The notes beneath the pieces were generated by a model. It did no database searches. It saw only the letters and a list, made by a program, of their open reading frames with translations, and was not told the origin of the DNA. DNA of 64,000 bases, from positions 744,001 through 808,000 of the forward strand of contig CP158635.1 in assembly GCA_050273025.1 (NCBI GenBank). Direction: 5' to 3'. Made by a program: the position numbers and the translations under genes. This document shows, one piece after another, positions 13,954 through 64,000 of the stretch; the stretch's first letter is position 1; the number at the start of each line of letters is the position of its first letter. This DNA is from Cenococcum geophilum. Lineage: Eukaryota.

Positions 13954-13957
13954 CGCT

Positions 13958-20477: not shown

Positions 20478-20908
20478 TGCTCCTCCATCTTATTAACTAA
20501 TTATGCCTTAAAAGTGCTACGTCCTTACTAATGCAAATTATTAACTCTATACAACAATCTTAAGGGCCGCGTTTTAGGCCTACAGGGTTTCTAAAACTAG
20601 GCCCCCCTTAAAATAAAGCATTTGCCCATCCTAAGCTACGCCTATATATAACATGGCGTCCCCAAAGGTATTAGTTAAAGAGGAGGTGCCTTATCTCTTG
20701 CTATAAGATCTCCTCTGGTCGCGTCCGTTCGCTCCATTCTACCTACCTACTACTTAATTTCCATCCTATCTTCTCTCTCTCTTTCTCTCTTTTTTTTTTA
20801 CCTACTGCTCTATAGCTCGCCCATCTATTCCTATAAGCTTATCTCTATATTCCTCTTCCCTCCCTTCTTTATATTAGCTTCTACTTACCTTATCCATTTC
20901 TCTATAAA

Positions 20909-23900
20909 ATGCTAAGAAAAAAAGACCCTTGCGAGTTCCTCGCCGTAGTAAGGGTAAAGGGCTCTAACTAAAGCAGGGAGGGTATAAACGGCACTAAAGT
21001 TTAAAAGCGTCTTAAGCTAAAGACAGAGAAAGCTTATTTTAGAAAGGTAGAGCTATAGTACTAGTAAGTTATAATTAGCGTACCGTAGCGGTTAGATTCC
21101 ATCCCGCTCTAACCCTTTACTAAATAAATTCGCTAAAGAAAATCCTAGTTCTTCTCTATATAACCTAGCATCCTTAAAAGATTTCGTTAAGAATATGGCA
21201 TATAGTATTAATGGCGTTAAGGATAATTTAATAGCAGCCTTAGATACCATTAGCTAGTACTAAAAAGAATTTATAGCTAGCTAGCGTCGTATTAATACCG
21301 TAATACCTATAAATATAACCCTCTCTATTACGAATATATATTCCGTTTATATTTCCCTATTTTCTCCTTATTAGAGTTCTAATCTTATTTAGTTTATTAA
21401 AGGCCCGCTAGCCAATAATCTAAAAATACCTAGAAAAAAAAGGCCGAAAAGGTTTATAACTAAGAACTACTTTATTTATTTAGGAAAGCAGCTATAGACG
21501 GCAGATTAGGTTGCGTATAAACGACCGGCAATAAGAGTAAACAATTAGGCGGACCTTATAGCCATTATTTATTCTTCCGCACAAGTTGGCGAGTATATTA
21601 AGTTTAGCTGTTAAGCGGGTTCTAGCTAGGGTTTGCACTATAAGGTAAAGAAACCCCCCCCCCTCCCTAATACGTATATATATATAGCGTAGTAAGTAAA
21701 TAAATTAACTCAGTTATAATATAGGATGTAACTTTTATAGTATTTCGCAATAAGTACAGAAATATAGAGTTTGCTATTTAAATCGTTTAAGATACTAAGA
21801 ACATAACTATAACACTAGATAAGAGGTAAGCGCTAGGTTGCTTAGCCTATTAAGTTAAGCGGCGGTTCTAATTCTTATATTAGTAAGCCAGAATACTCTC
21901 TATATAAGGGCATAGTAGTAATACCTCTTATTTACAGCCCCATGCTCCTAATACTGGCTATACTTATTATAGCAAAGGCGTTTAGGGACTATAACACTAT
22001 TAAAGAGCTCCTTAACATAGTACCACCGGAAGGGAAGATGCTTTATTTATAATAGAAAGAAAGTATACTTAACACACCTTTCTTTAAAAGTATATCCGTA
22101 AGACAGAAAATTAAAAAGGCGAACATATTTAGCTTTCGCCTTAAAGCGCTAGGTATCTATATAGGATACCCTCAGCCGCTTATAATTTACGACTTTAGGG
22201 CAGAGGGCTTATACTAGATTGGTATATATATAGTTGTTCCTTCTATCTTTAGGCTACTTACTAATTAATTTCTGGCAAAGATAAGCTGTATTTAGCCGCT
22301 TAAAGAATAAAGCATACTAGGCAGAGAGATTTAAATACGTTTAATAATTACTATATGCCTAATAATAGTGGCATAGATAGCTAGGCAAACTACTTCAGCA
22401 CTAAGCTACGCAGTATTATTAATAACCTTTTCCATGGTTTATCTCTCCCTTATAACCCAAAACTATAGCAATCTCTCCTAGTAGAGAAGCAGTATAAATT
22501 TAAGAATAGCTTAAAATATATTAATATAGAGGAGGAGATTGCCGCTCTAAAAGGGAAGAAGGACGTAAACTCTATAACCTATTAAAAGGAGCTTTATACG
22601 TAGAAACGTAAGCTAACTACTAAAGAACTCCATAAGTGGTAGAAGGTGCAGCCGTATAGACCAGATATCGGTAATAAGGATAATACCTTACCATACTATT
22701 ACCGGACTATATTTAACCAAACTTGATTTCTTATACCTAAACGGGACCGCCTTATATCTATACTTTTCGAGGTCACTACCTTATGGAGCCCTATAGGTCT
22801 TAACGCTCTCTACGATATAGTTATACTATATTAAAAGGATACCAAAGTAGAGTTTCGACCAGGCTTGGAGCTAGAGAAGTACCGTTACTCTAACTTAGCA
22901 GGCCAGCGGAAGACAGCTTAATCTCCGCTTAATAATACGAAGATAAAGACGACTTATAATTGGAGGCATATATATAACTGCTATAAGAAGAGTTATAATG
23001 GCTTTTCTAAGCTATGCTTCTAATGTAACTAGTGGATTTTTAGGAAGGCATAATAGAGCGGCCACTGCTAAGCGTATCTAGACGACCGTAAAAGACTTCC
23101 TATTTAATATAACCCTCTTATATACAATAGGGTGCTCGCCACTACTAGCTACTATCCTTTTTGCCTTAGTAGTACTGCGCTAGCTATAGTGTAAATGCAT
23201 TAATTCCTAAAACGGGCTATATAGAAAGAGCATATCTACAGATATATAGAAACCCTAAATAAAAGTAAACCACTAAATTGCCCTTACCTAGGTTTACAAT
23301 ATAGGGCGACATTTAATTTAGTTAGGAAGCTAAAATTCCATCTCTAGGATATTTATTACCTTAACTTTATTAAGGAACCAAAATCATTAAAAAGATTAAA
23401 AGAAGACTGTAAGGTAGAAATGCAGCTAGCCGAAGTTAAAAGGCAGAGGTCCGGCTATAAGAAGGAATTAAGCATAGGTAATAAAGCTCCAGCTAAAGTA
23501 GGATACGGTTTTATTAATAAGATAATAGAAAGCATTAGCCAATGCCCGTTTAACAGATCTATAACACCCTTAAGCCGTTTAATATTAGATTTCGGCAGTT
23601 ATATAAGTAGTGGCTAGACTAAAAACGGAAGCTTTCCTAGTACTAACACCCCACCGCTATCTATGTACAGTAGGATACTTAAGATAATTAACCCTAGACT
23701 TCTCCCTTAAGTGGCCATCCGGAGTAGCATAATATCTGAGTATAATGTAATTAATATAGTGGACCTTATAAACCCTAATAAAGACAGAACGCTTGCTCTA
23801 AATTAAAAAGATTCTAATATAACTTTAACTTCGCGTATATATTAATAACTAACGGCTAAGATTATTGCGTCTAATTAGGGTATAGATCGTCTTATATACG

Positions 23901-24436
23901 TAAGAGATATAGAGGACTATTTAGCTATTAAAGCCTTATTTTACGGCGTGAAACTAAAGGACTTAACTAATACTACTCTAAGCTTAGAATATATGGAGAT
24001 TAGGAAGCAGGAGTATAACGCTCTAGATACTCTAGTTGTTCTTAATAGCGCTAATCTACTTAGCCCTAGGTATATTAATTTTAGCATAACCCCTTATAGC
24101 GTGTACTTAGGATATACCTCTACTTCTAATCCACAAATTAATAGCCTACTATTACCAGCTAAATACACCAAGGGTAATATTAGAGAATTAACCTCTATAC
24201 AAGCTACTCGAGATATTGGCCCACTTACCCCCGTAAACGCGGAGGATAACCAGTTCACTATTAAACGGCTAGTCAAAAAGCGCCTCTGCTAAGTCAGCAG
24301 ACGCAAGAAAGTCCAGTATCTGGTTAAGTAAAAAGGGTATCCTAATAGCGAAAACACTTAAGAAGATAAGATAGATATATATAATGATCTAATTAAGGCC
24401 TTTAAAGCCCGGAAGCGCCTTAGCGTCTTAAAATAA
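20909..24436 (+). pseudogene. Starship captain: DUF3435 tyrosine recombinase with Cys/His zinc-finger-like region and C-terminal chromodomain (multi-exon, RIP stops)
   Basis: ATG at 20909. SSA[R]VGEYI...G[R]GLHYK (21573-21645). GYPQPL.I[H]DFRAEGLY (22165-22215). [QRM]KH..QRD..TFNNYYMPNNSG.D (22300-22380). C.QC..W......HC..H and CP......C..TF.....LKFHL.DI[H] (23010-23360). VQYLVK[W]KGYPNSENT[W]E (24311-24365). GT..AG introns at ~21646-21724 and ~22222-22280. Confidence 0.9.
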
Positions 24437-24949
24437 CCGTGGCCAGGGTCTAAAAGATTATCGTTTAATTATTACTCTTACTCCCTATTAGGTTTAAGGT
24501 TAAGCCTATAACTCTATAATTAGACGGACACATTAGGCACTATTTTCTATTATAATTTTTTCCCCTTTTCCTTTAACTTTTAACTTTGTTAAGGATACTT
24601 TAAGAATGCCTTTAATAGTTATAGTTATAGTTTACCAATAGAGATTTACGCCCCTAACTATATCCCTACTATATAGACTAAAGTTCTTAAATTCTAAGTA
24701 ATAAGAATTAATGCAGTAATATAGACCTACGCTAATTTTAGTATTACTACCACTTACCTCTTAAAAATGTTGCGCCATTGTCTTTCTTATAGTGTATCTT
24801 AGTTATACTATAAATATAAGGTTCCTAGAAAAGGTACCCTACTTAAAATAAGTATCCTAGGACTAGTTCTAGGGCCCTAAATCGCATTTTATTAGAACCT
24901 ATATTGTTTTTATACTAAGCTAAGCAGCCTTATATTACTTAGTTTAAAT

Positions 24950-25720
24950 AAATAAATATATCTTTTATTCGTTTTTTTGCGGATTATAGAGGTATAAACT
25001 AAAATAGCTCTAATACAATCAAGCAATATTAAACGCGGAAAGTAGAGGAATAAGTGCCGGGAGCAATTATTAAAACATATAGGTAAGACTAAGTAAGCTC
25101 TATTTAATTATAACTAACGCTTTTATAGGGAGTAAGTTAAGAATTATAATAGAGCCGTCATAAGTCCGTCTTATTTCTGGCCTAGACGACCCTTATATTT
25201 AAAGAGTGCTGCTAAAAAAGGAGAAACTATTCTTAAGAATTTTTTTAAAAAATATAAGCGATTATTCTATTAGTGCTTATAAGGAATTATATAAAGGAGT
25301 TAGTATAACGTTTAAGGCTGTATAGGTTATAGCTACTATAAAGATAAACTCTACAAAAGTATAAGGCGTTATAATATCGGTAAATGTGTATAAGATGTCT
25401 TAAATTATTAGGTTTCCTAACTTCTTATAGACGCTAAACTACCTAGAGGTTAGCTTTAGTGCAAAAATTAATAAGCTACAAACGGAAAATACCAGGTTAG
25501 CTTAAAAGTTAAGTAAATTAAGAGACAAGATATCTATAGAGATAGAGCTTAAGTAGCAGGCAGAGGAAGAAGTAAGTTAGCTTAGGAATATTAACTAGCA
25601 ACTTTAACGGGAGGCTTAGGACAGCGTAATAAAGTATATTTAAGGGCTTAATTTAATTAGGCTCCTATTAGAGGAGTTAAAGACCTAAGCGCCTCTAGGA
25701 GGTTACGAGGTCTTTTATTA
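24950..25720 (+). pseudogene. Hypothetical cargo gene with C-terminal coiled coil; boundaries approximate
   Basis: Intron gtaaga...ctaac...tag (~25083-25128), then KLRII.EPS[Q]VRLISG.DDPYI[W], then an E/K/Q-rich heptad-like segment at 25440-25690. Confidence 0.45.
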
Positions 25721-26699
25721 AGTTAAATCCCCAATCTAAGCTAGTAATTTAGATAGTTAAAAAATTTAAGTATATAAAATTCGCTATAAAAATAAGAGAT
25801 ATCTAGAAGGTTATAAGAGTGAGTAAGTAAGTAAGTATATAAAGTGGGAATAAAAGAGTATAGGACAAAAAGCGTTCTTTTTTTTTAATCCTAGTTACAC
25901 TAAGCATAGGAACTACTTTAAAAATATAACAAGTAATTAGGCGTTAGGCTTCGCGCTCTAACTTAAGAAAAAGATATATCCTTAACTTTAGACTAGTAAG
26001 TAGTTATAATTTACAAAGATTCCTAGCTATTAACGCTTTACTTAAGCAAGTACTTCCTAAGGCTTAATAACCTAAACAAAACTCTCTCCTCGGAACTGCC
26101 GTCATCGTACAGTAACGCCAATAACTCGCTACCTAAATCGATATTATTATGTAGACGTATAGTAATATTTAGGAATACACCGTCTGCGTTATTCCTGCTA
26201 TTAAGCATTAAGTATTACGGTAGGGGTTCTTAGGTTAAGGCACTTAATTCCATTAGTTGTTATTTATAGGCCCAATTAAAAACCTAATAAGAAAAACGAT
26301 AGATATGGGGTTTTAAACGGTTCTAAAGCATAGGTTAAGACCTAGTAAAGGCTATAACCCGTAGTAGGCGTTTAATAATAATAAAAATGCATATACTAAT
26401 AATTAGAGATATTATTAGTTAATAAGGAGACGAGATAGTATAATATATATATATTTCTAGTATGGATTTTATAAAATTATCTAATAATATTAATTTATAA
26501 AAAAAATAGAAAGGGCCTAATTCTGGGCCCCCATTACATCGCTATAGGTTGGCTATTTTTATATTACTTAGGACCATTTTTGGGACTAGAAGTTCTTATA
26601 TAAGTATTAAAAGAATTTATATAGAAACTGGCCTATTCCTATTTTAATATAACTAGTTTTAAAGCATTCTCTTAAAGTTTATTATCCTCTTACTATAGC

Positions 26700-27615
26700 G
26701 AAGGGAGGAACGTAGCTAAAGTAAGGTGTCTTAGTTACCTTTATACTTGCCGCTATCTATTATATAGTTCTAGCGCTGTAGGTATTATATAAGGAAAGCA
26801 ATATAAAGGCGGGTATTACGACCTTAAGCGTAAGATATTACTCTCTATCCGGATTTTTATAAGTGGCTTTAACTAATAGGTTCTTAAATTTAGTTTAATT
26901 TTACTATTAAACCTCTAGATAATCCCTTTGTTATACTACGCGCCCTTCCAGAGCAAGACATCCTTTAATCTTTTTAGACTAAAGTTATAAGTGTTACTAA
27001 TAGCGTTACGACGGCCATCCCTAGTACTATTAGCCAAGTATAAAGCGCCGCAAATGCTGCCGCTATAGTCATTCCTAAAGCCATTAAGGAATTAATTCCT
27101 AAAAATTGCTCACTAGGCACGAAACAATTCTGTGTCGGATTTACTTATAATATAATATGTGATGACTTACCATTAACTCTCTCTAATATAGTGCTAGAAG
27201 AGGTTAAAAGCTTTCTTAGAGACTAACTTAATAACCTTTAATCTTTAGAAGGGATTTTAACAAAAGCCACTTCTGTATATATCTAGGACTGCTTAATTAT
27301 AAAGCTGGTTTTAATGCTTATCTTAACCACTATATTCTTCTATTTAATATTTAGCCGCTTATTTTATATCGCGGCCATTCTTCTAAGGCTTAGCGTTTGA
27401 TTAAGGGTAGTAATTTATTTAGTATTAGGTATAGTATATTGCATCCCTCTCTTTATACCTATTGTTATTTTGTATATTTTCCAGTTAAAGACTAAGAAAC
27501 TATTTTCCAAGATTAAGATGGAGAAAGGTAAGATAAGTGGATTATATTTAGGAGCTCTCTGCTATACTATTGTGATGACATTACTAATTACTCTTATACT
27601 GGCTATTATTTAAGA
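26700..27615 (+). pseudogene. Multi-pass membrane cargo protein (possibly SUR7/PalI-like topology); start approximate
   Basis: IPKNCSLGTKQFCVGF...C.DLP (~27095-27175), followed by three hydrophobic segments (27290-27610). Confidence 0.45.
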
Positions 27616-28711
27616 ATATATTGCAAAAACAAAGGATAGGCGATAGAGGCGGAAATTAGGGGTGCTAAAGGTCATATTTAGAGATTATAATAGCTATTTA
27701 TAAAAAAATACTTTAATTAAAAACTGGGAGTATAACCGGCGGAGAAAAAGGGCGCTTTATAGGGATATTTTGTTATAATACGTCAGAAGGCCGTATTGGG
27801 AAGGTCTAACTACTAATAGCGTAAGTTAGCGGAAGTATAAATTTTCTTAGATAGCTTTGAATACATACAGTTCTTTATAGCGTTTAGTTTCGGGTTAGTT
27901 AGCACTTTATTTAAATATATATAAATAATTAGCAGCATCTAAATCCCTTATAGTTAGAACTAAGTATAAGTAGCGAAAACATAATACCCTAACCGCGTAA
28001 TACCTTTTTAGGGATCTTAGATGTTTAAATAAGAACTAGTATAATATTACTTTAGCTATCAGTATTTATAATTGCCGTTATCTTATATATAGTGGCTAAT
28101 ACAGCTAAGCGTTCTAATTGGGTTACTCTATAGGCATTAATAGGCCATATAAGCTAGACGAGACCGCGGAATTAATATAGCTAAAAATGTTTCCCTATTG
28201 CTATTTATATTAAGGGGACTATATTTAGCCCCTTTAGCATCCTTAAAATACTTCTCTATTTTAAGATATATTTTATAGCTGCGCTTAAAATTAGTTATCC
28301 TTCCTATTATTTAATCCCTACATCCTATCTATAAATAAATGCTTAAGCCCGCAAAGCCCTACTGTACGCGTCCACGTCGCCGCGGGTGGAAACATTATCG
28401 GGAAATTATTTCTTATAATGGCTAAGTGCAGAGGTGATGGAGGAGAGCCGTCGCAGCGCGCGCAGCGCGCTAGTGTTGCGACTTTGTGGTGTTGAGCCTA
28501 TGACGCGTACATTACCCTTAATAATACCAGGAGTCCTACTGCCCTTACTTAGGGCTCCTGCCATACCATTTAGGGGGGCCATTAAGGGAAACTGGGATAC
28601 GAAAACCGCCCGACGTATAACTACCTAGCTCGCAGCTAGGCCCGAAACTGGCCTTATTCAGCCAGTTAATATAAACGCGCCCTAGGCGTACAATAGGACA
28701 CCCTTAGGCTT

Positions 28712-31700
28712 TGTTGGAATTATAAGGTCATAAGGTCACAGCGGAGGTGTCTTAAGGGTCTAATTGATGATAGAGATGACGCAGACGATGAATTTTGATT
28801 AATTCGTGATGCAGTAAATGCGGTTGATATCTATCTAAATTATATACAGAGCTTAACCTCACAAGGTGTCCAGAGCTTAGTCAGCACCTTATCGCTAATT
28901 TCTGACACTCCCCTATGCTGACGACGCTCTCCTTATCTATCCTAAATAGGCAATAATGAAGCTATTCCTAAATACCTTATAAGTGCCATTCGGCCTATAT
29001 ATAGAGGGAAAACCTAGTAGGTAAAAAACCTCTATTACCTGCTCTGTTAGTTACTAATTCCTAGCGTTACATAGTGCTTTGTAAATTGGTTAATTAGTAG
29101 CTGCTTTATAAGTATATCTCCTGGCTAATCTTTACCTAGTATATATATTACTTTAAGTTAATCTTACTAAACCATATTATTTCGTACGAAGAGGTATTAA
29201 ATCTTAATATGCTTGGCTTTCTAGTGGTATCTTATGTCGTATAAAAGGTTAACTATACCCTTATTGTCACAGTAGAGCATAAAGACAAAAGGGTCGTTAT
29301 TGTCTCTCTCCCCTAGATCTTTTGTTAGCTTCTTAAGCTATACTATTAACCTTACTCCTTTTAATGCTGCCATAATCTCTGCTTTTATTAAGCTTAATGC
29401 CGTTAACCTCTATCTTTAAGCCATTTAGATTACCGCTCCCCTATAGCGCATAACTGCTATGCCTTAAAATAATATCCGATTGTGTTCTGTTCCCTATATA
29501 GCGTTAGTAAAGATACTGTAGCTAGTAGGCAGGTTAGTTAACATAAGCTTATATAAAGGTAGGTAAATCTCTTAATTTAAGTAGGTAATTCCTGTTTTGA
29601 GAGTGCCGTTTAGATATTGTAGTAGTTGCTTGCTTAAGCGGTAGTGTAATTCTCCTAGTACTGCTATGAACCTAGCTAGCTAACTAACAGCATAGCTAGT
29701 ATTAGGACGCGTGTAGTTTAAGAGGTAGATTATAGAGCTAATAATCTATTAGTATACCGTCGCATCGTCGTACTTAAGGGGACTTTTGATATTAGGTTTC
29801 AGAACAGTACTAGCTAGTATTAGTAGCTTAGCCGGATTACAGTTGTCCATTTTTAACCGTTTAAGTAGCTTTTTAGTATATATCGTCTGATATAGCTTAA
29901 GGGTTTGGTTTGTACGGTCTTAATAGATTTAGAAGCTTATAAATACTTCTATAGAACCTAGGTCTTTACATCTCCATTCTCTTAAGATTTTTACCTTCGT
30001 AATATTAAGGTGTCTGCGCTTTCCTACAATTAGCATATTATTAATAAATAATAAAATATACACTTTATTTCCTATAAAGAGATTAGGGTTAGCGTTAGCT
30101 AATATTAAACCTATACTCTTAAAGAACTTCTTAACCATCTAAAACCATTCTCTCGGTACCTGCTTTAGGCCGTAAAGTGACTTATTTAGCTTTAAGTAAG
30201 CGTCTTTTACCTCCTTAAGGTTAGGCTTAAAGTCTCTTAATAGGTTAGGAATCTATATATAAACCTACTCTTATAACGGCGGGTTTAAGAATACTGTTTT
30301 AATATTGACGTGGTTAAGTTTAAGGTCTTTAGCTGCTACCTTTACCATTAGGAACTTAAAGGTGTTGTATTATATAATAGACGCAAACGTCTTAAAATAA
30401 TTAATGTTAGGGGTCTACTTGTCTCCCTAAATGTATAGTCTTACCTTCTTACGAATTACTTCTCCCTTAGCATTATACTTGTGCTTTAGTACTAGCTTGC
30501 TTAGAAGTAACAACCTTCCTTCTAGTACTCTCCCCCTTATAATAGTATAGGTGTGCATTCTCTTTAGGGAGAGAAATTCTTTAAAGATAGCTTTTATCTA
30601 GCTAAAAGCGTCCTCCCTTAAGGCCTAATCTAACTTAATAGCGTTAAAAGGTGCTATAGGTGCTCCTATAGAGGTAGTGTTTTTAGCTTTTAGGTGGATA
30701 GCTTTTATAGCTATTACTAACTAAACCACCGTATTATTAAAAACCCTTATATTTAGTAACCTTCTAGACCTTATTCTCTGTGTATAAGGAATGCGTATTA
30801 ATATACTTTATATAGGCGTCCCACCCTTTATATTACCTTAATTTAAGTATCCCGCTTAATCTTAACCTAGGCTTCCCACTTAATTTAAGCGGCCCACTTA
30901 GTCTTGACCTAGGCTTTCCACTTAGCTTAAGTGGCCCACTTAGTCACCATCTAGCCTACTCTTAGTTCTCGTAACTGGAGTCTCTGTTAGCGCGTTTAAG
31001 GTAGTAGGGGGAGGTCTAGGTCGGTTTAAAGCTTAGCTTATAGCTTGCACCTAAGGTACTCTATAAGGGAACCTGTACTTATTTACTTTAGCATCTCTAA
31101 AGAGCTTAATTGCTTGCGTATATAGGTTTATTATTTTAAATTAACTACTGCCTTTTAACCCTATAAAAACATAGTTAGGTCTTATTTTTAAATTATACTT
31201 CCTAGGGTATTTCTTAAGCGTATTAATCAGGTTGGTATAGCACCTAAAAACAACTAGATTCTTAAGGTTAGGGACTTAATAGGTATATACCTCGTAGGGT
31301 ATAATAGCACCACTATACTCGTCGTTAAATGGGAGAGCTAAGGTTGGTACTTGATTCTTAATCCAGATAGTATATTCGACTGTATAGTACTAGCGTTTAA
31401 CTAGTATATTTCCTTAAAATAGAAGTAACCTTATTTTGTAGTTAACTGTATAGATTGCGCGCTTGATCGCGCTATTATATAAGTGCTTATATAGCGGACA
31501 AGGCTCAAAATTAATACCTTGGGGTATTAATTCGTCTTGAAATCTGCGGCCAAATTCCCTCTTTTTATTATCTGCTTAAATCCAGACAGCTCTATTACTA
31601 GTGAATCTCTCTACTCTTATAATAATCTCTTTAATATACGGCAGTACTTCTTTAGTTTAGAGGGTTTTAAGAGGAATGACCTAGGTATAGCGTATGGCGT

Positions 31701-39500: not shown

Positions 39501-40010
39501 AAACTATCTACCGTAATGTAATACTGGTTGGACTAATGCTAGAGAGGTAAATAGGAGTTAAAGGTATAGAGGCTAACTTAGGCAAGATAAACCTAAGCTA
39601 TAGTATAGTTAATGCTATAGGGGGTAAATACCTAAGGGCTTTAAGAAGGCCTAATAAAGGCAGAAAATATAATAGTAATACTCTTAAGAATAGGAATAAT
39701 AGGACTAAAAGATTGGCTTTACTAGGTAGGTATCCTAGTAGGTAGCCTAAGATGCGAATATGGCTAGTTAAGATAAACACTAAAACACGTAATACTATTA
39801 TGCCCCCTACGCACTAATTAAGAAATAATGCTCTTAGTAGCTGGCATAGAGAACTATAATACACTGCTCTTAATATAAAAAGGCCTTAAGGCGGTTACCT
39901 AGTGGCTTATTAGTTAAAATGTACTAAATTAGTTCCGGGTTGCAAGGGAAATGGTAATAAAAAGCAAGGGGGCGAGCAGCAGGTGCCCCCTAGTAACTCT
40001 ATAGTAGTAG
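36560..40010 (+). pseudogene. LINE-B ORF2 (APE endonuclease + reverse transcriptase); boundaries approximate
   Basis: I[LQ]YN ~36575; LGDINL[H]HP ~36962; SYRPIALENTLSKILE (ORF 37863-38240); GIP[Q]G[S]PLSPILFLFF ~38525; GFID[D] ~38622. Confidence 0.88.
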
Positions 40011-43487: not shown

Positions 43488-43787
43488 TACTAACTAAGAT
43501 ACCTTAGAATAATAAAAATATTTTATAACAAATTATAAGTTTCCTTAGTAGTGGCATAAGAAAGTGCTATTAACTTTAACGCAACAATTAAACGAACCAA
43601 GCTTTGCTATTTATGCTCTTTACGGAACCGTGGCGGATAAGTAAGAAGAAAGTTTTATATTTATTATACACCTATATAGCGAGAATATTACTACTTTACC
43701 TATTCTATAGTTTAAATGTTAAAATATTAGGAAAATAAAAAAACCTAAACTTCGTATAACGATATAATAAGACCTTTCTACTTTCTT

Positions 43788-51134: not shown

Positions 51135-51815
51135 ATAGGTAAGACTTAGACTAGACCATTATTCTCCAAATATAACTATTTGTTAAACTAGTTACTAGAC
51201 GTAACTACTCCAGATATAGCTATTTTAGATATAGCTGTTAAATATAGCATTCTTACTCTCTAGATATGACTATTCTCTAGATATAGTTCTCCTATTTAGC
51301 GCTACTAAGAGGACTAATTATTTTAGGCCAATTGGGCATCCAATAATACAGACATAGTTTCCTATTTAGCGCTACCAAGAGGACCGGTTATTTTAGGCCA
51401 ATTAGGCATCCGATAATTCTCCAGACGTAGCTGTTCTCTAGACGTGGTATTAAAAGGACCGGTCATTTTAGGCCAATTAGACATCCGATCTCCAGACGTA
51501 GCTATTCTCCAAATATAGTGTCCTATTTAGCGCCGCTAAGAGGACTAGTTATTTTGGGCCAATTAGACATCCGATCTCCAGACGTAGCCGTTCTTCAGAC
51601 GTAGTGTCCTATTTGGCGCTGCTAAGAGGACCGGTCATTTTAGGCCAATTAGACATCCGATCTCCAGACGTGGCTATTCTCAAGACGTGGCTATTCTCTA
51701 GCGTGGTTTTCCTATTTGGCGCTGCCAAGAGGACCGATTATTTTAGGCCAATTAGGCATCCAATAATTCTCTAGACATAACTATTCTCTAAACGTAGCTA
51801 TTCTCTAGACGTAAC
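51135..51815. repeat. Tandem repeat array (~70-105 bp units with tctccagacgtagctat subrepeats)
   Basis: tcctatttagcgct.c.aagaggacc..ttattttaggccaatt.g.catcc recurs at ~51290, 51360, 51450 (partial), 51520, 51607 and 51710. Confidence 0.85.
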
Positions 51816-51964
51816 TAGGATCCCTTAACTACGGTTAGCTAAAAATAGAGGGTCCCAGAATTGGGTTCTAAGGATAATATTTAAAGCGCAGCTAAAAACT
51901 TATACCAGTTATAATAAATAACCTATTCTCCTGTAGCAAATATTATTAAATAAGCCATATAGAT

Positions 51965-54900: not shown

Positions 54901-55400
54901 ACTAAAGATAAATTACCTAGATTAACTTAGATAAACTTATAGAACTAATAGGCTAAGAACTAGTAGAAGAAGATTAGGTATTAAAGACTATACCCTAAAA
55001 CAACTATTAAACACGGTAAGACTAAATAGAAGTTAGTAAAAACACCTATACTACGCGGGATAATATAGATTCCGTAGTAATAGATACTACTAACTTAACT
55101 TCTACTTCTAACCGGAGGATAAAGACCCAGAAAATTTAAATAGACTTTAAGATTATAGAACGCGGCACTTAGAGTTTAGTATATAGCCTCCTAGTTAATC
55201 CCTTTAAGCTATTAGAGGTAAGGTAAGTAGTAGTAGAGTATATAAGAAAGAGGGGAAGGATAAAGATATATAATACAAATAAATATATACTAAGCCCTTA
55301 AATATATTTTAAGGACGTTATTACTAATAGGATAAACACTATACTTTTAATTCCGGAATCGGAGAGGGACACTATTAACCTTTCCCTTATATCGGGATGA
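51965..55400 (+). pseudogene. DUF3723 protein with long coiled-coil repeat (Starship auxiliary gene)
   Basis: KYRGTASV.L..L.F; N[H]LP.VI; FRLECL[H]G.H...AA.EFLP.GDKR[W]I.DLY; intron ~52373-52427; EYS..KKP.D[GE]IYYKIRQY; LIPSF..FF[E]DLNYL; ICADFL...KPT; C-terminal LSP..CF.DV..D..NTILLIP. Confidence 0.85.
53845..54785 (+). repeat. 15-bp coding minisatellite (consensus cttgagcaggagagg = LEQER), roughly 60 units
   Basis: cttaagcaggagagg / cttaagtaggaaagg repeats in 15-bp register; variants are G>A and C>T changes. Confidence 0.92.
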
Positions 55401-57906
55401 CTTATAATTTACTCTTAGCGGTAGCTATAACCAGTTTAGAATATATATAGACTTTTTGCCCTTTAAGATATTATATTTTAGTAAAAGATAAGGGTCTAAT
55501 AGACCTTTCTCTATTAGAGGGGAGGTTTTTATTATAAGGATGGACGAGGTTTATGCTAGTAATATTAATAGTTAAAACTCTTTAGATTAGATTAGTTCGG
55601 TTTAACTAAAATCTTAAAAGTAACCGGTTTGTCGGTTTAATTAACTTAATTTAGATTAGTTATTAGGCATTTTAATAAACTAGTTATTTAATAAAACTAA
55701 ATAGCTCTAGCTATAATATAAACACAAGCCTCTATATAAGCCTCTGCCACAGCCTTACCCTAAAAGAATAAGCGCTACAACCTAAATAAGGCTAGCTTCT
55801 GCTAAGGCCAAAAAAACACGCTAAAATACGTAAATAAACACTTTTAAGACGTATTATCTGGTTAAATCTAGTTTAACTAATGCTATAACCGGTTTAAGCC
55901 TTAAAATTGTATTTTAGATTAGTTTTAATGTCTATCCCTAGGTCCTAAAATATATACTATAATAAGATAAACTATAGGTACTTTAAGTTTAAAGTAACAG
56001 AAACTCTAATAGCGTATTAATATTTGCGTTGTTCTACTTACCTCAGCAAGCTTAAACCGTAGAATTAATTAACGGATATATATATATCCGCAAGCGGATA
56101 TCGCTAACCTTTTTTATTAAAAAGTTAATTCTATAGTCTAAGAGACTTTTCTAGACTTTATTAAGCGACGCGACTTATTTTATATATAGAGCAGTTACCT
56201 TTTTTAATGAAATTAATCTATAGCTTCTTCTATATCGCGCTTTAATTCCCTTTATTATTCTACTAGAATAGAAGTCGACTCATATACTTAATAAAGGATT
56301 TTTAGGCAACGTTAACCAGCGTCTATAGGCGATATTTACTCGGCTTATCAATTATATAAGTATCTTATTTAATTAGGTACAATTCGGCTAGTAACCTTTA
56401 CCTATACTATACGGAATGTCTCTAATAGTCGCGCCACTATTTTATATAGTAGCCTTTTTCTAGTAATGCGCTCTATAACTAAGACCGTGGTAATTCTCGT
56501 TATAGACTAGTTTCCTAGGGGAGAAATAGCTGAAGAATAGTAATATATTAATAACAACTTCGCAGACTTATAAGGGAGAGACTTAAGATATCTAAACTGT
56601 GGATTTGTCTTGGGACGGGGTGCGTCTCTTAATGTAGGGACGGACGTTAGCTTTATTTTTAAAACGTAACTTAACCGTTAACATCACTAGTTGCCTTAGA
56701 AATTAGTTTTCTACTAAAAGGCTAAGTATTAAATTTAATAAGGCGGGAATATAGTATACCTAATGTTTACTAAGCCACTACTAAGAATATACATAGCTCG
56801 TTAACCTACTATTGCCTAAGACTCTTATAAGGTGCCCTAAAACGGGTACCCTCCACTATAAATAAACTTATTTCCTTTAGTTATCTTAATCTAGATATAG
56901 CCGAAGTTTATTTATAGATATAAAGGGACCAGAATTAGGCCCCTTATAAATTACAATTATAAAAAGGCCCTTTATAGCACTAAGTACTACTTATTAAGTT
57001 AAACTAGCTTTACTACTATATAATATCTATAATAAGCGTGCCAGTTAGCGTTCCCTCTACCGCCTAATATACCCGACCTTAACCTATTCCTAGAAACCCT
57101 AAAGCCTTAAATTAAAATAAGAAATATATACCTTATAAAGCACCTACAATATAAATACCCTATATGGTAATATCTATCTAGGTAAATAAAGCTTCCACTT
57201 AGCATAATGCCCTTGCTGCAATTTTTTCCTAGCTTATCCTTATAGGATATATTGTATTCCCTAGCACATTTACCTCTCTTTAAAATTCTAATAGTCTTAA
57301 TAATAGTAAAAGAGAGAAATTCGTCCAATATACTGTTAAGAATGCGCCGCTTCTACCTATAGCAGGCGTTTGCTATATCGTTAAAATAGTTAGCACATAT
57401 TAGTTATAGCAGAAGTAGTAAAAGAATTATATATGGCTAATTGCTCGGATATGCTTATAAGTTATTTATAGCTGTATAGAGAATATATATTAACTTATTA
57501 GATAAAGGCCCGGTCTACTTAATTCGTTTACTAGCTTATTTACAACGCTTATTAGTATCTATACTGCGTAAAGCAGACACTAGTCCGTAACGGCTAAATT
57601 TATAATTAAAATAATCGGTTTATATATAGCTCTATTAGCGCTAACTCTAGCATAAAACCTAAGAAAGCTAGATAGAATTAAGACGCAGTATAATAAAGAA
57701 GTAGCTAAGCACAGTAAATCGTAGAGTAGTTTAATAGAAAATTATATTAATACTTAAGCTAATTAAGGTATTAGAAGCATTGTTATTCTAGATTTTATTA
57801 ACTAAAATTTCTAATAAGATAATGGAGACCCCCTATATAACAATGCGAGGATATATACTAAGATTAATATTAAAACAATAAGTAGCAATATTTTTAATAA
57901 GATATC

Positions 57907-58059
57907 TATTACGGCACTATTACAGACCTTAGTTAGGGGCTCGCTAGAGCCTTAGCACTATATATATAGACATGTCCTTTCCTTAACCTTTTTCTAGTCT
58001 TAGAATTCTAGTTTACTAGCTACTAATAAATTCTATTCTTTTAACTAAGCCTTTATAAC
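57907..58059. repeat. Short LTR-like dispersed repeat (copy 2, uninterrupted)
   Basis: Matches 43122-43487 minus the 201-bp insert. Confidence 0.7.
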
Positions 58060-59384
58060 GGCCCTTTAATTCTCCTATAAAAATATTAAGGGAAGAGGGG
58101 CCCGCTTACGGGCCTAGACGGGCACGCTTCTAAATTTAAAGGTTCCTTAAAACGGTCCTAAATACTCTCTATAGCTTCCTCCTATATAATATACCTTCTA
58201 TCTCGCTCTAATAAATATATATACTAAGTAAGGTCTTTAATATATCCACAGAACCTCTATTAATGGCATTTAGCAACCTAGATAAAGAGGGTTAGAGATC
58301 CCTTCTTAGTAGTATAAGTATACCCTCCCTCTATACCTTCTATAGGTCTTTGGCAAATGAACCTACTAGTGCATATACACTATTAGTTACGCTAAAAAAG
58401 GTCCTTAAAGCCGTCCTTAAGAGTATAGACATTGTAGATTATCTAAGAATTATTTAACTAGTGGCAATAAAGAAGCAAGTATCTGCTCTCTCCTTAATAG
58501 AAGAATCTAAACGGATAGAAGTACTTAACATTATAGACGACGCTAGCCGTAAAGTGGCGATTGAAAAGCTTTAGTTATATAAAAGAAGGCGTATAGAGAA
58601 ATGGGGCTCTCGCTGTTCCATAGCACCTATAATTAGAAAGCATAGTATTAATCTTATAGAAGTAATTATGCATAACTACAAATAAGTTAGACTAATAATT
58701 AAGGAAAAAGGCAGCTTAAGTTAAGGACTAAGAAGTACAGTTAGAAGGCGGCTCGGAGTATTAGATTCTTTAGTAGTTAAAGATTATAAAGATTATATAA
58801 TAAGCGTGTAGATTTCTTAGGTTTCTGACTATTATATATAAAGACACTTATTAGCACACTAAGATAGAACCGTCGCAACTACTATACCGTTATAAGGCAA
58901 GCGCCAAGGAAACGGCCCTTAGATCTCTTTAATCATATATTACTAACAGAGAGATTAGCTACTAAGACTACTAAGCTTGCTTACTTCGCAGCTAATACTT
59001 TATTTCATTAACTCTAACCTATAATATTAAAACGCGGAGTAATTTATATTAAAACTTATTATAAAGCATTAAAAGAATATACTAAGTCTACGCCTTTTAA
59101 AGCCTCCCTAGTAACCCTTCTCTTATTTTATCCTACCTAAATCAGAGGCTAGATCTATACGGCCTTTCTCTAAACTCTTAACTATTTTATACTTCTAGTT
59201 ATATATCTATTAACCTTTATTAAGTTATTTATAGAGACTGTGCTAGGCTTATCGGATCCCATAGCCAAACCCATCTAGTTATTTTACTTAAATTTGTTAG
59301 AGAGCTGCCCTAAGTTCTAAGTATATCTAGTCTACTATAGAGCCTTTTCCGAGATATAAGTCTTAAAAGCCTCTACGATATCTA

Positions 59385-62140
59385 TCCTTAAGCGTTTAGA
59401 ATCTAATATGTCGTGCTAACTGCTAACTAAAAGACCGTTTATCTAAAGCGCTAAGTTTCTTATAACTATTAGGCCGCAGCTAGACCTATCTTTCTATTAG
59501 GGGGTAGGCTGCTTACTAAAGTCTAAGATTAGCCTATTGGTAACAATATTACCTAGGGTTTTAGTACGTACCGCCTTAATATATTTAAACTTTAAGTAGC
59601 TAAACTCCTCCTACTATAATATTAGCCATATCTTTAATTATTTAGCTAAATCCTAACTCACTTATATAAGCTTCCCAACTTAAGTTAATTCTAATATGCC
59701 ATTAATAACATCTCCATTTACTATCGAATTATAATAATAGATCTTTTCCTCTTGCCTATTTATCTTAAGTAATATAAAATGGCTACCTTTACAGTTTAAT
59801 AGGCAAAAGTACACTAGACGAGATTCCTCTCTATACTCTTTCTAGGCTTCTCTATAGAACGCTTTAACTTTCTTTCTCTAACCTACTAGAGGCCTAGTAA
59901 CGCGTTTTATCTTACCGTTTTTACTAAATTTCTTAAATTAGTCTAGTGGGATACTATAACCGTATCTTATAAAAGACGGTTTATCGGATATTATTATACT
60001 AGCCATTAAAAGCTATCTGTTAAACTATTTACCTTAGCGAAGCCTATTAAATATATTGTACGGTAGCTCTATTCCGTCTTCCATAGAGACACTATTATCT
60101 TCCTTAAGCTTCCGCTTGCCTAGGACTTTAGTATTAATATTCTCTATTAAATGGTTAACAGCAGCATCTAAGGATCCCTTTGGTATCGCCTCCTATGCTA
60201 GAAATATCTACGTTAATCTATAAGCTTCTCTCTTTAAATAAGTAACTTACCACCTCTAGCGCAAAAGTAGCTATTAATTCCCTACACTCTTCTTCTAATA
60301 TAAGACTCTCTACCGTTAGCGAAGTAAATAGGGAGTAAAGGTTAGGCTTTCCTTTGTTTATTAACAGCTCTAACTATTAACTTAGAATTTAGAGCAGTCG
60401 CATACGCTTTAAGTCTGCCTAAATATCTTTAATTAGGATATCAAGTTGCTCCATATCTTTCTTAGTATACTCCCTACTTAAAATTGGTTTCTTAGCAGCT
60501 AATAGGTATTTAGGGGGCAGGCCGCTCACTAGATATTTAAGCTAAAGAGTATCCCTAGGCCAAGTTCTTTTACAAGCTTTATGCTTAGCTTATACCCTCT
60601 ACTAAGCTGCGTATTAATCTACTTCCTTTATAATTATCTATTCCTCTTTATAATACTAATATCTATCGAGTTGCCAGATCTGCTATAGTCTTCTCTTATA
60701 GTTAGTCTCCTAACGCCTCTAACCCACTTCCTAGGTTGCTTAGTTCTTATCTGCCGACCTTATATTTTATCTAGTACGTAAATTAATGCGCCCCTGCGGT
60801 CTATTAGCTTATTCCTTTTAGTATAGATTATAACTTACGCCAGTTTAACCTGCCTATTATACTACTCCTAAGCTCCTATATACTCTAGCATGTTAAATAT
60901 TATAACTCTTTAGGTCTCGGAAAATCCCGCTTTTAGTATACGCATCTATATAGAGCCATCTAACCACTTACCTAAATTTGGCAGGCTTAAAAGCTCCTTA
61001 CTATCCGCCCGCAATATTTATAGGATCCTTAAGTAAACCGCCTTCGGAACCCCTTACTAATACTAGCTAAATCCGTGGATAATCTAAACTGCCTTAAGGA
61101 CTATATCCCTTACTATAGTAACCTCTATAGGAGGCGAGCCTACGGTAGGGCTAGGTAATGAGGAAATACTCTTAACCAATATTAGTATCTTCTCTCTATA
61201 GATCTCTTCCGTCTAAGGTAAGGTAAATATATTTCTTTCTATCTGTTGCGCCGGTGTAGCTAGGGCTACTATACTTAGCAATAGTGCTTAAGGTAGGGTG
61301 GTATGCCTCTCCAATTCCACAGGCTCTGGTTATTAATTTTAATCTCCATTTAATACTAGGGTGGTTCTAGATTCTAGGATTCCTTTCTTTATAGGTGCAC
61401 TGCTAATCTATTGGCAACCTATTACCAATTCTACTCTTATAAAATCCTCTTTAGTAGCATTAACACCATCGCCTAATTCGAGGTAGTATACTTCGACCTT
61501 ATTATTATATATACCTTTATCCGGTGCCAGTAATGCAGTAGCATCTTTCCTAATCTTACTCTATCCATTACCATTTTAAAGAACTTTGCGTTTATCCTAA
61601 TAGATTAGCATATCCCTAAACACCGGAGTAGCCGGTTAAGTTAAGCGATTAATACTAAGGCTACTTTTACTTTACTATAGATTAAGCTTGCCTAAAGGGT
61701 TGTCTTTCTTTACCTTAGCCTTAGCGGATTTTAGAGACTAATAGGAATAACCCTTATATCTTACGGACTTTGCAGCTTTATCCTCTATATCCTCCTGGAG
61801 CTGCTATAGCCCTCCAGTTACATCCTATATGCCGCCATTTATATTACTATACTCCAGGATTATATTAGCTAAAGATTAAGTAGCCTTAGGGGCTTTCTTA
61901 TATAGACTGCGTACGAGCCGAGGGAACTAGGCCGATTAATGGTAAGATCCTCTAAACGGGATGCGCTCTTAATAAATAGCCCTTTTATATATCTTAGGCT
62001 AAACCTATATTCCGACTATTACGTCTTAGGTAACCTTAGTAACGAATTTATTAAAGAGTATTAGCAGTACTTTACTTCTACTAATTAACGCTCTTGTACC
62101 CTAATTAATAATTAGCTTGTTATTTATACGGCAACCATCT
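59385..62140 (-). pseudogene. Large multi-exon cargo gene with C-terminal Ulp1/Peptidase C48-like (SUMO/ubiquitin-like protease) domain; start approximate
   Basis: Minus strand: RLR.GK[W]F[D].[W]LL (~60010-60050); VYFC.LNCKGSHF.LL.IN (59761-59815); KIY[H]Y[D]S (~59724-59745); PTP[QQ]KDRSSCGL.VIRN (59457-59508). Introns at ~60250-60208 and ~59662-59612. Confidence 0.7.
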
Positions 62141-63496
62141 CTTAGTAGTCTACTCCTACCTCCTAGCTTAAAGTCTCTTTTTAGACATTTATTAGCTCTA
62201 TACTCGCGGATACGCCTAAGTTATTAAATTCCATTACGGCTCAAATTTCCAGGTTATCCTAGTGTGGTGCTTAAAAACGCATTAAAGGTTAATCAATTAT
62301 TATAAAACTGTGATAGTAATAAGAATAGCAAGAAAGGATCGGATTAAGAGGACGCGTATATATATATATAAATCTTACAGGTATTTCAGCATCCTAAGAT
62401 ATTAAAATGCTCCACTAAAAGTTATTATAAACAATTACACCGCTATATGGCAACTAAAGCCGGCTAGATGCCCTAATAGCGGTATTATATAACCGTTTTA
62501 GAAATAAGGATTAATAGCTATTACGTGGTTAATAGAGATAGGAAATATAAAATACGGATCTTAGGGTTGCTTGGCTAATGGTAGTATATATAATCTTAAT
62601 TCTTATTAGCTTATATAAGTATCCAATTACTAGGATTTAGAAGAGCTATAAGTCTAATATATATCCTATTACTTAGAGATCCTGGTGCCAACTAATAGTT
62701 TAAAGCGCTATCTTAGGTAAGGGAATTTTACAAGCCGCACCATTAAATACCCTTTAGGGGCTTTTAATACGCTCTAGCGTCTTATTACCTATAATATAAT
62801 ACAATAGGGCGCATAAAGCCGCATATCCCACTTAAAAGCCCCACTCTCTCAGTATTACTATTAACGTATACTACTACTACTAACGGACAGGTAACCCAAG
62901 GGATTACCGTATCGTATGCCTGTATATAGGAAAGATAAATAATCTATATCATTTAATCCTTCCTAAAGTCCCCTAAGATGTAGTCTTAAGAAACCTAACC
63001 ATTTATAGTATAGTTACTGGTTTATATAGAGCCCGTCTAGCCAAAAGAGTATTACCAGTTAGCGCCTTAATATTAGTAATATCATTTTATAGTTTAAGGA
63101 GCGGTAATAAGGCGATCCGTATTCCAACGCCATTGGCGCTGCGATTTATAACACGGCAACCTCTCGTACTTAGATCCTAAGCGTACATTTATGCCCACAA
63201 ACAAGTAACCTTAAATTAAGCCCCTATAGACGGTTAAGGCGGCACCGCTTAGCTTATTAAATTATAGTAATATCCTCTCTTCCTTCTAGTGTTACAAACT
63301 TACGCATTACTAGTATATATTAGGGGCGTTTTAGCAATCCTCCTAGCATGCTCCCTTATAACTTATTGTCTTATATAGCACGAACTAAATTTAACTGCTT
63401 ACCTTAGGGGGGGGGTTAAAGCAGACTAACTAGCATCTATAGCATATCTATTCCTTAGGCCAAGAGCGTATAAGCTGCCCTTAACTTTATATAAGA

Positions 63497-63705
63497 ACTA
63501 GGGAATAGGCTTTATTAATAATACAAACCTAATTATATACGGGCTAATAGCTATAAAGAATTGCAGAATACTAGAGAAAGTTTATAACACCTATATAGAA
63601 TAGGTAAAATAATATAAAGTCCAATTCTTACTAGAGAAATACTAGCTAATCTATTTTATAAGAAAACGTAACTAATTTATAGATCTTTAGTATATAATTT
63701 ATATT
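63497..63705 (+). mobile_element. Isolated internal fragment of a LINE-B-family RT
   Basis: Colinear match to 38612-38820 (gg.ataggctttatt.ataata.aaacctaattatatacgggctaatagct...). Confidence 0.85.
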
Positions 63706-64000
63706 AGTCCTTAAAATCGGACTCTACACCTATATATAGTGAGGTCTATAAACCTACTAGTCTTTAGACTTAGTAGAGCTAACGTAAAGACGTCACACAG
63801 CTATAGGTAGGAGGTAGTGGTGGTTGACGAAATGTTATAGGGGGTAGTGAAAAGTTTTTATATAGGATGGTGAGATCTCAAAAACCACTACTAACGGTAA
63901 CCCCCTTCATAGTAGATAACTGCTATACTCCTATTTAACCCTATATAATCCTTACGGATATAAGATAAAATTTAACGTCCCCTGACCCCTAATTAAAAGC

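What the first reader, a model, noticed from the sequence alone, without database searches (positions are those of the whole stretch)
20478..64000. RIP-fossilised Starship giant transposon invisible to ORF calling
Seen: a spliced gene with DUF3435-type motifs comes first, followed over >40 kb by RIP-damaged non-TE genes (FRE, DUF3723, ferritin-like, Ulp1-like, membrane proteins). Established: Starships are Pezizomycotina elements with a 5' DUF3435 tyrosine-recombinase captain, often with DUF3723 and FRE genes. Inference: these genes form one element extending past the window. The element class is known, but this element and cargo set may be undescribed.
Basis: partly seen in the sequence, partly recalled or inferred. 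Interest (0 to 1): 0.85.

Follow-up and report, generated by a model that had tools for sequence, protein, structure and literature searches.

The report
Dead, mutated Starship-type transposon relic
A fungal DNA block riddled with defence-induced mutations holds the dead recombinase gene of a giant "Starship" transposon and at least one of its usual companion genes, an ordinary decayed member of a known kind whose full extent cannot be shown from this window.

Summary
The core observation holds. All of 4001-64000 carries the RIP signature. At 20909-24412 (+) lies a spliced, dead DUF3435 tyrosine-recombinase gene. An intact 667-aa DUF3435 homologue aligns to it end to end in five collinear pieces. 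It continues into a zinc-finger-like stretch and a C-terminal chromodomain, the architecture published for the Enterprise captain Kirc. A complete DUF3723 domain lies at 52127-53760 (+). A Ulp1-like protease relic lies at 59320-61275 (-).

No ferric reductase or ferritin-like gene appeared in a six-frame Pfam scan. About a quarter of the claimed "non-TE cargo" is a Copia element and LINE copies.

Contigs from three runs break at 20331, 577 bp upstream of the start codon, which may be the element's left end. There is no right end, repeat pair or empty site.

Best reading: a derelict Starship-like region in a Gloniaceae-like Dothideomycete, nested with retroelements. It is a new member of a known kind, of low to moderate interest. 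The single-element claim is plausible but unproven.

The parts
4001..64000 (.). RIP-mutated AT-rich block (context; wider than the finding)
   Evidence: composite RIP index 0.85-1.9 in all 30 bins of 2 kb. GC 28-43% against 53% in 1-4000.
5930..13833 (-). Ty3/Gypsy LTR retrotransposon in the upstream flank (not part of the element)
   Evidence: LTR pair 5930-6229 / 13534-13833, 90% identical. RVT_1 E 8.5e-15, RT_RNaseH E 1.4e-18, Integrase_H2C2 E 7.7e-4; summed contig depth 60,000-220,000 against about 28 in the host flank.
13802..17600 (+). LINE (endonuclease plus reverse transcriptase) in the upstream flank
   Evidence: Exo_endo_phos_2 E 8.8e-8, RVT_1 E 1.1e-7.
18146..20331 (.). High-copy tandem or satellite-like repeats ending at a junction
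   Evidence: families D2, D3, D6, D9 and D11, periods of about 475-515 nt; summed depth 2,000-28,000.
20331..20334 (+). Candidate left end of the element (junction; TTAC at 20331-20334)
   Evidence: table 7: contigs of X1 (3), X5 (4) and X8 (4) match up to 20331 and then continue with one shared other sequence. One search gives the sequence; that continuation is not in the window.
20909..24412 (+). Dead captain gene: DUF3435 tyrosine recombinase, then a Cys/His zinc-finger-like stretch, then a chromodomain. At least 5 exons: 20909-21055, 21102-21644, 21725-21826, 21885-22214, 22280-24412.
   Evidence: P0001 and P0004 align collinearly. DUF3435 20.3 bits and Chromo 25.8 bits; 44 stops in 1085 codons.
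24257..24412 (+). C-terminal chromodomain of the captain
   Evidence: PF00385 E 1e-5, 25.8 bits (gathering score 25.1), in the same frame as the exon starting at 22280; relatives P0051, P0006, P0012 and P0059 also carry Chromo.
27014..27613 (+). Transmembrane-looking ORF relic, no family
   Evidence: no Pfam family at E<=0.5. The hydrophobic stretches were read by eye from the printed translation.
28714..33629 (-). Nested Ty1/Copia LTR retrotransposon
   Evidence: LTR pair 28714-28907 / 33436-33629, 89% identical. RVT_2 E 1.9e-27 and 1.1e-26.
34800..40500 (+). Nested LINE (limits approximate)
   Evidence: RVT_1 E 5e-16 at about 38109-38865; codon log-odds peaks at 35282-39661.
45304..45610 (+). 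Small nucleoside 2-deoxyribosyltransferase-like gene relic
   Evidence: PF15891 E 8e-15, 55.5 bits, profile 4-105 of 105; 5 stops in 102 codons.
51288..51795 (.). Tandem repeats of about 86 bp upstream of DUF3723
   Evidence: families D5 and D10.
52127..53760 (+). DUF3723 gene relic, whole domain, with one frame change or intron near 52.70-52.78 kb
   Evidence: profile 1-169, E 2.8e-32; profile 181-507, E 2.9e-60; 33 stops in 517 codons.
53798..54900 (+). 15-bp tandem array continuing the DUF3723 reading frame (charged pentapeptide repeat)
   Evidence: family D1, 53 registers of 15 nt; translation of the frame; only low-complexity sub-threshold hits.
59320..61275 (-). Ulp1-like (peptidase C48) gene relic, 3 exons detected
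   Evidence: PF02902 E 0.0038 (below the gathering score). P0152 E 1.7e-40, P0153 E 1.3e-33; collinear tblastn pieces with gaps of 59 and 61 nt. P0153 has PF02902 with E 2.4e-7.
63495..63699 (+). Second copy of the LINE reverse-transcriptase segment
   Evidence: family D7, 88% identical to 38609-38813.

Best explanation
The stretch from about 20332 to beyond 64000 is most likely the RIP-killed ('derelict') remnant of a Starship-type giant transposon in a Gloniaceae-like Dothideomycete.

Shown:
- Its first gene was a captain: a DUF3435 tyrosine recombinase with a zinc-finger-like stretch and a C-terminal chromodomain.
- Further in, on the same strand, it carried a DUF3723 gene.

Inferred:
- When active, the captain would have cut and rejoined the element's ends to move the whole block.
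- A small nucleoside deoxyribosyltransferase-like gene and a Ulp1-like protease gene were also cargo.
- The element inserted into a satellite or TE-rich site.
- It existed in more than one copy and so became a target for RIP. RIP filled every gene with stop codons and changed residues that I read as catalytic.
- It was also invaded by a Copia and a LINE element.

It is now inert sequence.
For: 1. Captain identity. P0001 (PF11917 E 1.2e-14) aligns over aa 1-666 in five collinear exon-like pieces at 53-68% identity. P0004 gives the same exon pattern.
2. Chromodomain. It lies in the same frame. Of the 19 relatives I scanned, 7 carry Chromo, and P0051 has DUF3435 plus Chromo in one protein. Kirc of Enterprise is described as YR, Zn finger and C-terminal chromodomain (PMC8092012, Fig. 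4 legend).
3. DUF3723. The whole domain is present. DUF3723 is one of four gene classes reported to colocalise with DUF3435 in Starships (PMC9156397 passages).
4. Left junction. Contigs of three runs break at 20331 with a shared continuation. This is 577 bp upstream of the ATG and fits a captain at the 5' end.
5. Other copies with RIP-type differences. Metagenome contig L001 is 85.6% identical over 2200 nt, and 302 of 313 substitutions are transitions; 84 of the 115 C>T changes are at CpA. Variant contigs within single runs differ by C>T or G>A, and summed depth over the captain is about 8 times the host flank in X1 (this is not a copy number).
6. Nested LTR elements are reported inside Starships.
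7. RIP-inactivated copies are a named category, 'derelict'.
Against: - No right end, no terminal or direct repeat pair and no empty site. No inverted repeats of 60 nt or more were found in the window.
- RIP and TEs begin 16 kb upstream of the captain, so composition marks no boundary.
- About 27% of 20.3-64 kb is retroelement sequence.
- FRE, PLP, NLR and ferritin-like families were not detected.
- The direct DUF3435 Pfam hit on the window is below the gathering score.
- The 20331 junction comes from short Logan contigs. It may only mark a truncated satellite copy.
- If the host is like C. geophilum, most of the genome looks like this: 78% TE, 73% RIP-affected, and 37 Starship YRs catalogued. 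Neighbouring relics could then come from different elements.
Confidence: 0.6

Rival explanations
1. TE graveyard with unrelated relics. A solo dead captain, or the head of a truncated Starship, happens to lie near a DUF3723 relic and other decayed genes that arrived separately, from other Starship fragments, other transposons or host genes hit by leaky RIP. There is no single 43-kb element.
For: The whole 60 kb is RIP-mutated and TE-packed, with Ty3, two LINEs, Copia and satellites. No right boundary was found. The captain family is multi-copy. Earlier notes of this scan list many solo dead captains (unchecked leads). Genomes of this lineage are reported as 73% RIP-affected.
Against: DUF3723 is specifically reported as a Starship companion gene, and here it lies on the captain's strand, 28 kb downstream of the captain's end. 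My own rough estimate is that a few dozen copies in a genome of about 180 Mb would make chance proximity within 43 kb about 1%. The true relic number is unknown.
Confidence: 0.28
2. A small cargo-less tyrosine-recombinase element (Crypton-like, or a minimal captain-only unit) inserted at 20332. Everything downstream of about 24.5 kb is unrelated.
For: Only the captain has demonstrated extra copies: L001 covers 21062-23257 only, and P0001 comes from contigs of 3.4 kb or less.
Against: The gene belongs to the DUF3435 family and has the YR, Zn-finger and chromodomain architecture described for a Starship captain. A DUF3723 gene is present downstream. The short lengths of L001 and the P0001 contigs reflect assembly, not element size.
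Confidence: 0.08

Closest known systems
Starship Enterprise and its captain Kirc (Podospora anserina)
   Same: The captain has the same domain order: N-terminal tyrosine recombinase overlapping DUF3435, a central zinc-finger region and a C-terminal chromodomain (PMC8092012, Fig. 4 legend). One Enterprise version also carries DUF3723 (PMC9156397).
   Different: No sequence comparison with Kirc itself was made here. The window copy is dead, with 44 stops. No Spok genes and no defined ends. The host is a Dothideomycete-like genome, not a Sordariomycete.
Voyager and other Macrophomina phaseolina Starships (Dothideomycetes)
   Same: A DUF3435 captain at the 5' end with DUF3723 among conserved companion genes. 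These elements are also colonised by LTR elements (PMC9156397 passages).
   Different: FRE, PLP and NLR families were not detected here. No 5S rDNA target was seen. Boundaries and an empty site are unknown.
'Derelict' or 'degraded' Starships (starfish nomenclature)
   Same: Copies mutagenised by RIP and no longer active. Insertion into AT-rich or TE sequence is common in several families (PMC11162782 passages).
   Different: That catalogue lists captains but zero bounded elements for Cenococcum geophilum (37 YRs) and Glonium stellatum (5 YRs) (Table S8 rows). A bounded element from this lineage would therefore be a new entry.
Cryptons (tyrosine-recombinase DNA transposons)
   Same: A tyrosine recombinase as the only mobility enzyme.
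   Different: Cryptons are small and carry no cargo. This gene is a DUF3435 member with a chromodomain and lies upstream of a DUF3723 gene. This comparison is recalled from memory, not tested here.

Membership tests
Starship | Captain gene: a tyrosine recombinase of the DUF3435 (PF11917) family | tested here: met
   The window's own hit is 20.3 bits, below the gathering score of 25.8. The 65%-identical homologue P0001 scores E 1.2e-14 and is collinear over aa 1-666.
Starship | Captain is the first gene at the 5' end, reading into the element | tested here: inconclusive
   A contig-supported junction lies at 20331, 577 bp upstream of the ATG, with TE and satellite sequence upstream. It rests on short contigs, and no second end was found.
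Starship | Defined ends (direct repeats, sometimes TIRs) and an empty site in another genome | not testable with these tools
   No genome is held and the window ends at 64000. There are no inverted repeats of 60 nt or more. The sequence that continues the interrupted flank is not in the window.
Starship | Cargo of non-transposon genes moved with the captain | tested here: inconclusive
   DUF3723, Nuc_deoxyri_tr2 and Ulp1-like relics lie downstream. Co-mobility was not tested.
Starship | Frequent companion genes: DUF3723 | tested here: met
   PF12520 profile 1-169 with E 2.8e-32 and 181-507 with E 2.9e-60.
Starship | Frequent companion genes: FRE, PLP, NLR (common, not obligatory) | tested here: not met
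   No PF01794, PF08022, PF08030, PF01734, NACHT or HET at E<=0.01 in the six frames scanned, + strand 20.1-64 kb and - strand 19-64 kb. Sensitivity is limited: the Ulp1 relic was missed in the same scan.
Starship | Host in Pezizomycotina | tested here: met
   The best named homologues come from Glonium stellatum, Exophiala xenobiotica and Aspergillus tanneri. The RIP signature is present.
Active tyrosine recombinase | Open reading frame and catalytic R...HxxR...Y residues intact | tested here: not met
   There are 44 stops in 1085 codons. Where P0001 has ARVGE, HDFR and NHY, the window has AQVGE, YDFR and NYY. Calling these residues catalytic is my own reading of the canonical motif.
RIP (repeat-induced point mutation) | C>T and G>A transitions with CpA preference in duplicated DNA; raised TpA/ApT and lowered (CpA+TpG)/(ApC+GpT) | tested here: met
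   Indices. Against copy L001, 302 of 313 substitutions are transitions; 84 of 115 C>T changes are at CpA and 52 of 99 G>A changes at TpG.

The most novel reading that the evidence does not exclude
This is one copy of a lineage-specific Starship family of Gloniaceae-like fungi. On this reading, its chromodomain-bearing captain steers insertion into RIP-mutated satellite or heterochromatin, and the family multiplied to many copies before RIP killed it. It would be the first bounded element from a lineage where only captains are catalogued. Its cargo would be an unusual set: a Ulp1-like protease, a nucleoside deoxyribosyltransferase-like gene, and a DUF3723 with a 1-kb pentapeptide repeat.
Probability: 0.15. 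Interest if true: 0.5.

Novelty: new member of a known kind. Interest (0 to 1): 0.3.

Why it matters
If the single-element reading holds, it adds a decayed Starship to a fungal lineage with an extreme TE load, in which a published catalogue lists captains but no bounded elements. It would also show that giant cargo transposons, and not only retroelements, fed the RIP-mutated fraction of such genomes.

It is also a methods point. Genes that ORF callers and Pfam thresholds miss after heavy RIP can be recovered through intact homologues. It does not change what is known about how Starships work.

Tried and rejected
- **Whole-genome searches:** no genome is held.
- **Stop-density map:** it often picked the antisense frame of real genes, for example 13.8-17.4 kb, so I abandoned it as a gene finder.
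- **Codon log-odds map:** trained on the window's own relics. It gave candidates at 24.9-25.8, 33.6-34.5, 46.1-47.9, 48.2-49.4 and 57.2-59.0 kb. None had a Pfam family at E<=0.5.
- **FRE motif hunt:** one YPFT on the minus strand at 44824-44835. The surrounding 400 aa gave only chance-level PDB matches, E 0.065 and 0.13 to coat proteins. Rejected.
- **Search for longer proteins joining the C-terminal extension to the recombinase:** none found, which is weak evidence. The link was shown instead through P0051.
- **Metagenome scan for flanked copies of the captain:** only one 2.2-kb contig, with no flanks.
- **Laying Logan contigs of four runs on 2001-22000:** contigs in the repeats are 60-200 nt, so presence or absence of the element in other strains could not be judged. 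X14 had no cover on 2001-3334. A joint 4487>18153 (one contig each in X1, X5 and X8) has only 20 letters on its shorter side, so I did not use it. The 0.34-0.43 word shares of the organism-B runs were not interpreted as absence of anything.
- **Right-end search:** the flank continuation has 0 matches at 3 or fewer mismatches and only chance-level purine/pyrimidine matches.
- **ESM Atlas look-up of the membrane-like relic:** Not pursued.
- **Earlier-findings look-ups by place and by sequence:** nothing found.
Full report
**Setting.** The window has two parts. Bases 1-4000 are about 53% GC with no RIP signature. Bases 4001-64000 are 28-43% GC. In every one of the 30 bins of 2 kb there, TpA/ApT is 1.48-2.29, (CpA+TpG)/(ApC+GpT) is 0.36-0.70 and the composite index is 0.85-1.9. 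Of 14 stop-to-stop ORFs of 120 aa or more, 8 lie in 1-3012. The other six all fall in three places in the RIP part, one of them a tandem repeat. So "RIP-fossilised and invisible to ORF calling" is correct. But the RIP block starts 16 kb before the finding's start. No whole genome is held for this window.

**Method.** I read the DNA through its stops as X and scanned it against Pfam:
- + strand 20101-26102, three frames.
- + strand 26000-64000, three frames.
- - strand 19000-64000, three frames.
- Selected frames elsewhere.

At E<=0.01 the finding's interval gave six real families:
- DUF3435 at about 21927-22203 (+): 20.3 bits, E 3.1e-4, below the gathering score.
- Chromo at 24257-24412 (+): 25.8 bits.
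- RVT_2 at about 29.8-30.5 kb (-): E 1e-26 to 1e-27.
- RVT_1 at 38109-38865 (+): E 5e-16.
- Nuc_deoxyri_tr2 at 45304-45610 (+): E 8e-15.
- DUF3723 at 52127-53760 (+): E 2.8e-32 and 2.9e-60, covering profile positions 1-507 of 508.

The only other hits were sub-threshold low-complexity matches on a tandem repeat. No ferric-reductase, ferritin-like, patatin or NLR family appeared. The scan is not fully sensitive, because it missed the Ulp1 relic described below.

**The captain.**
- A word-based search with 22052-24499 found two proteins. P0001 (667 aa, precomputed PF11917) had E 2e-129. A Glonium stellatum hypothetical protein had E 4e-88.
- tblastn places P0001 aa 1-666 on the window in five collinear pieces at 53-68% identity: 20909-21055, 21102-21644, 21725-21826, 21885-22214 and 22280-23218. 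The gaps are 47-80 nt, the size of fungal introns. A 19-codon insertion inside the second piece is probably a fifth intron.
- P0004 (773 aa, DUF3435 E 1.4e-14) gives the same pattern. The "spliced DUF3435 gene" is therefore real, and its ATG is at 20909.
- It is dead, with 44 stops in 1085 codons. Where P0001 has ARVGE, HDFR and NHY, the window has AQVGE, YDFR and NYY. These are RIP-type changes at positions that I read as the recombinase's catalytic Arg and His. That assignment is my inference from the canonical motif.

**Captain architecture.** The last exon's frame runs on through a Cys/His-rich stretch to the chromodomain.
- An exhaustive HMMER search with 22280-24499 found 405 proteins at E<=1e-3 and 32 at E<=1e-30.
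- I scanned 19 proteins against Pfam: P0001, and 18 of the 150 listed hits. I chose the 18 because they were long or matched the query's C-terminal part.
  - 5 carry DUF3435 above threshold.
  - 2 carry DUF3435 below threshold.
  - 7 carry Chromo. One of these, P0051 (956 aa), has DUF3435 at 176-451 and Chromo at 893-934 in one protein.
  - 6 have no family.
- The Enterprise captain Kirc is described with exactly this order: recombinase, zinc finger, C-terminal chromodomain (PMC8092012, Fig. 4 legend). The chromodomain is therefore part of the captain and is not novel.

**Other copies and RIP.** A metagenome contig (L001, 2200 nt) aligns to 21062-23257 at 85.6% identity, introns included. Of 313 substitutions, 302 are transitions: C>T 115 (84 at CpA), G>A 99 (52 at TpG), T>C 38 and A>G 50. 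This looks like two independently RIP-mutated copies of one sequence. Laying Logan contigs of four runs on 2001-22000 showed two things over the captain:
- Variant contigs within single runs differ by C>T or G>A.
- Summed depth is about 235 against about 28 on the host flank in X1.

This is consistent with several copies, though the tool warns that summed depth is not a copy number.

**Left end.** In X1, X5 and X8, 3, 4 and 4 contigs respectively match the window up to 20331 and then continue with one shared sequence that the window lacks. Left of 20331 is a high-copy satellite-like array. Right of it the window reads TTACAGACC..., and the ATG follows 577 bp later. The simplest reading is that something beginning at about 20332 interrupts a repeat that is continuous elsewhere. 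That fits a captain at an element's 5' end (PMC11162782). It is a lead, not proof:
- The contigs are short.
- The shared continuation could also reflect a truncated repeat copy.
- The TTAC is suggestive only by recall of the Hephaestus-family target, TTAC(N7)A, mentioned.

**Flanks and nested TEs.**
- Upstream: a Ty3 element with LTRs at 5930-6229 and 13534-13833, 90% identical, with RVT_1, RT_RNaseH and Integrase_H2C2. Then a LINE at 13.8-17.6 kb with Exo_endo_phos_2 and RVT_1.
- Inside the interval: a Copia element with LTRs at 28714-28907 and 33436-33629, 89% identical. Also a LINE at about 34.8-40.5 kb and a second LINE fragment at about 63.5 kb.
- Together these make up roughly 27% of 20.3-64 kb.
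- Starships are reported to be colonised by LTR elements (PMC9156397), so nesting does not argue against the reading. It does contradict "non-TE genes" as a description of the interval.

**Other gene relics.**
- DUF3723 is complete, with one frame change or intron near 52.70-52.78 kb and 33 stops in 517 codons. Its frame continues into a 15-bp tandem array of about 1.1 kb.
- The Ulp1-like relic gave only a sub-threshold Pfam hit, E 0.0038. Homologues from Exophiala xenobiotica (E 1.7e-40) and Aspergillus tanneri (E 1.3e-33; PF02902 E 2.4e-7) align collinearly to 61275-59320 (-) in three pieces with gaps of 59 and 61 nt.
- A full-length Nuc_deoxyri_tr2 domain lies at 45304-45610.
- A hydrophobic ORF relic at about 27.0-27.6 kb has no family.

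**Comparison with what is known.**
- Starships are defined by a DUF3435 captain at the 5' end, cargo, direct repeats and sometimes TIRs. RIP-inactivated copies are called derelict or degraded. AT-rich and TE insertion sites are common (PMC11162782 passages).
- DUF3723, FRE, PLP and NLR genes often accompany captains (PMC9156397 passages and Table 2).
- The starfish catalogue lists 37 Starship YRs and 0 bounded elements for Cenococcum geophilum, and 5 and 0 for Glonium stellatum (Table S8 rows; the file was cut when stored).
- A 2026 C. geophilum genome paper reports 78% TE and 73% RIP-affected sequence, and mentions Starships only in its reference list (passages).
- The window's host is only inferred to be of this kind, from the Glonium homologue and root-metagenome holders.

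**Verdict.**
- The captain is a Starship-type captain relic, about 0.9.
- That it, DUF3723 and the other relics were one element running past the window is plausible, about 0.6, but unproven without a right end or an empty site.
- It is a new, dead member of a known kind, in a genome type where such debris is expected.

Noticed in passing
window 53798-54900: A tandem array of 15-bp units, about 1.1 kb long, continues the DUF3723 reading frame as a charged pentapeptide repeat. It leaves a 321-aa stop-free ORF on the opposite strand (53936-54901) that is a repeat artefact. GC skew is +0.33 and the RIP index is highest here (1.9).
   Followed up: partly
window 6003-14006: The Ty3 element's k-mers reach summed depths of 60,000-220,000 in run X1, against about 28 for the host flank. 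This is an extremely abundant family in all four runs laid.
   Followed up: no
window 4487 / 18153: One contig each in X1, X5 and X8 joins 4487 to 18153, skipping 13,665 nt (the Ty3 and the LINE). The shorter side is only 20 letters, so it may be a chance or paralogous match rather than an ancestral arrangement.
   Followed up: no
window 43117-43485 and 57902-58058: A small repeated element occurs twice at 86-94% identity, with different internal spacing: 304 nt against 92 nt between its two matching parts. It is unclassified.
   Followed up: no
window 20388-20470: Four or five close copies of a CTTAGG/GCTTAGG-like motif lie within about 80 bp, just inside the candidate left end. They could be subterminal repeats or chance.
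   Followed up: no
window 44700-44900 (-): The translation contains an 'AIVGSGP..SG'-like stretch resembling a dinucleotide-binding GxGxxG motif. There was no Pfam or PDB support.
   Followed up: partly
window 51288-51795: Tandem repeats of about 86 bp lie directly upstream of the DUF3723 gene.
   Followed up: no
window 1-4000: GC-rich host sequence without RIP, containing long ORFs (for example 3-1052 +). Not analysed.
   Followed up: no
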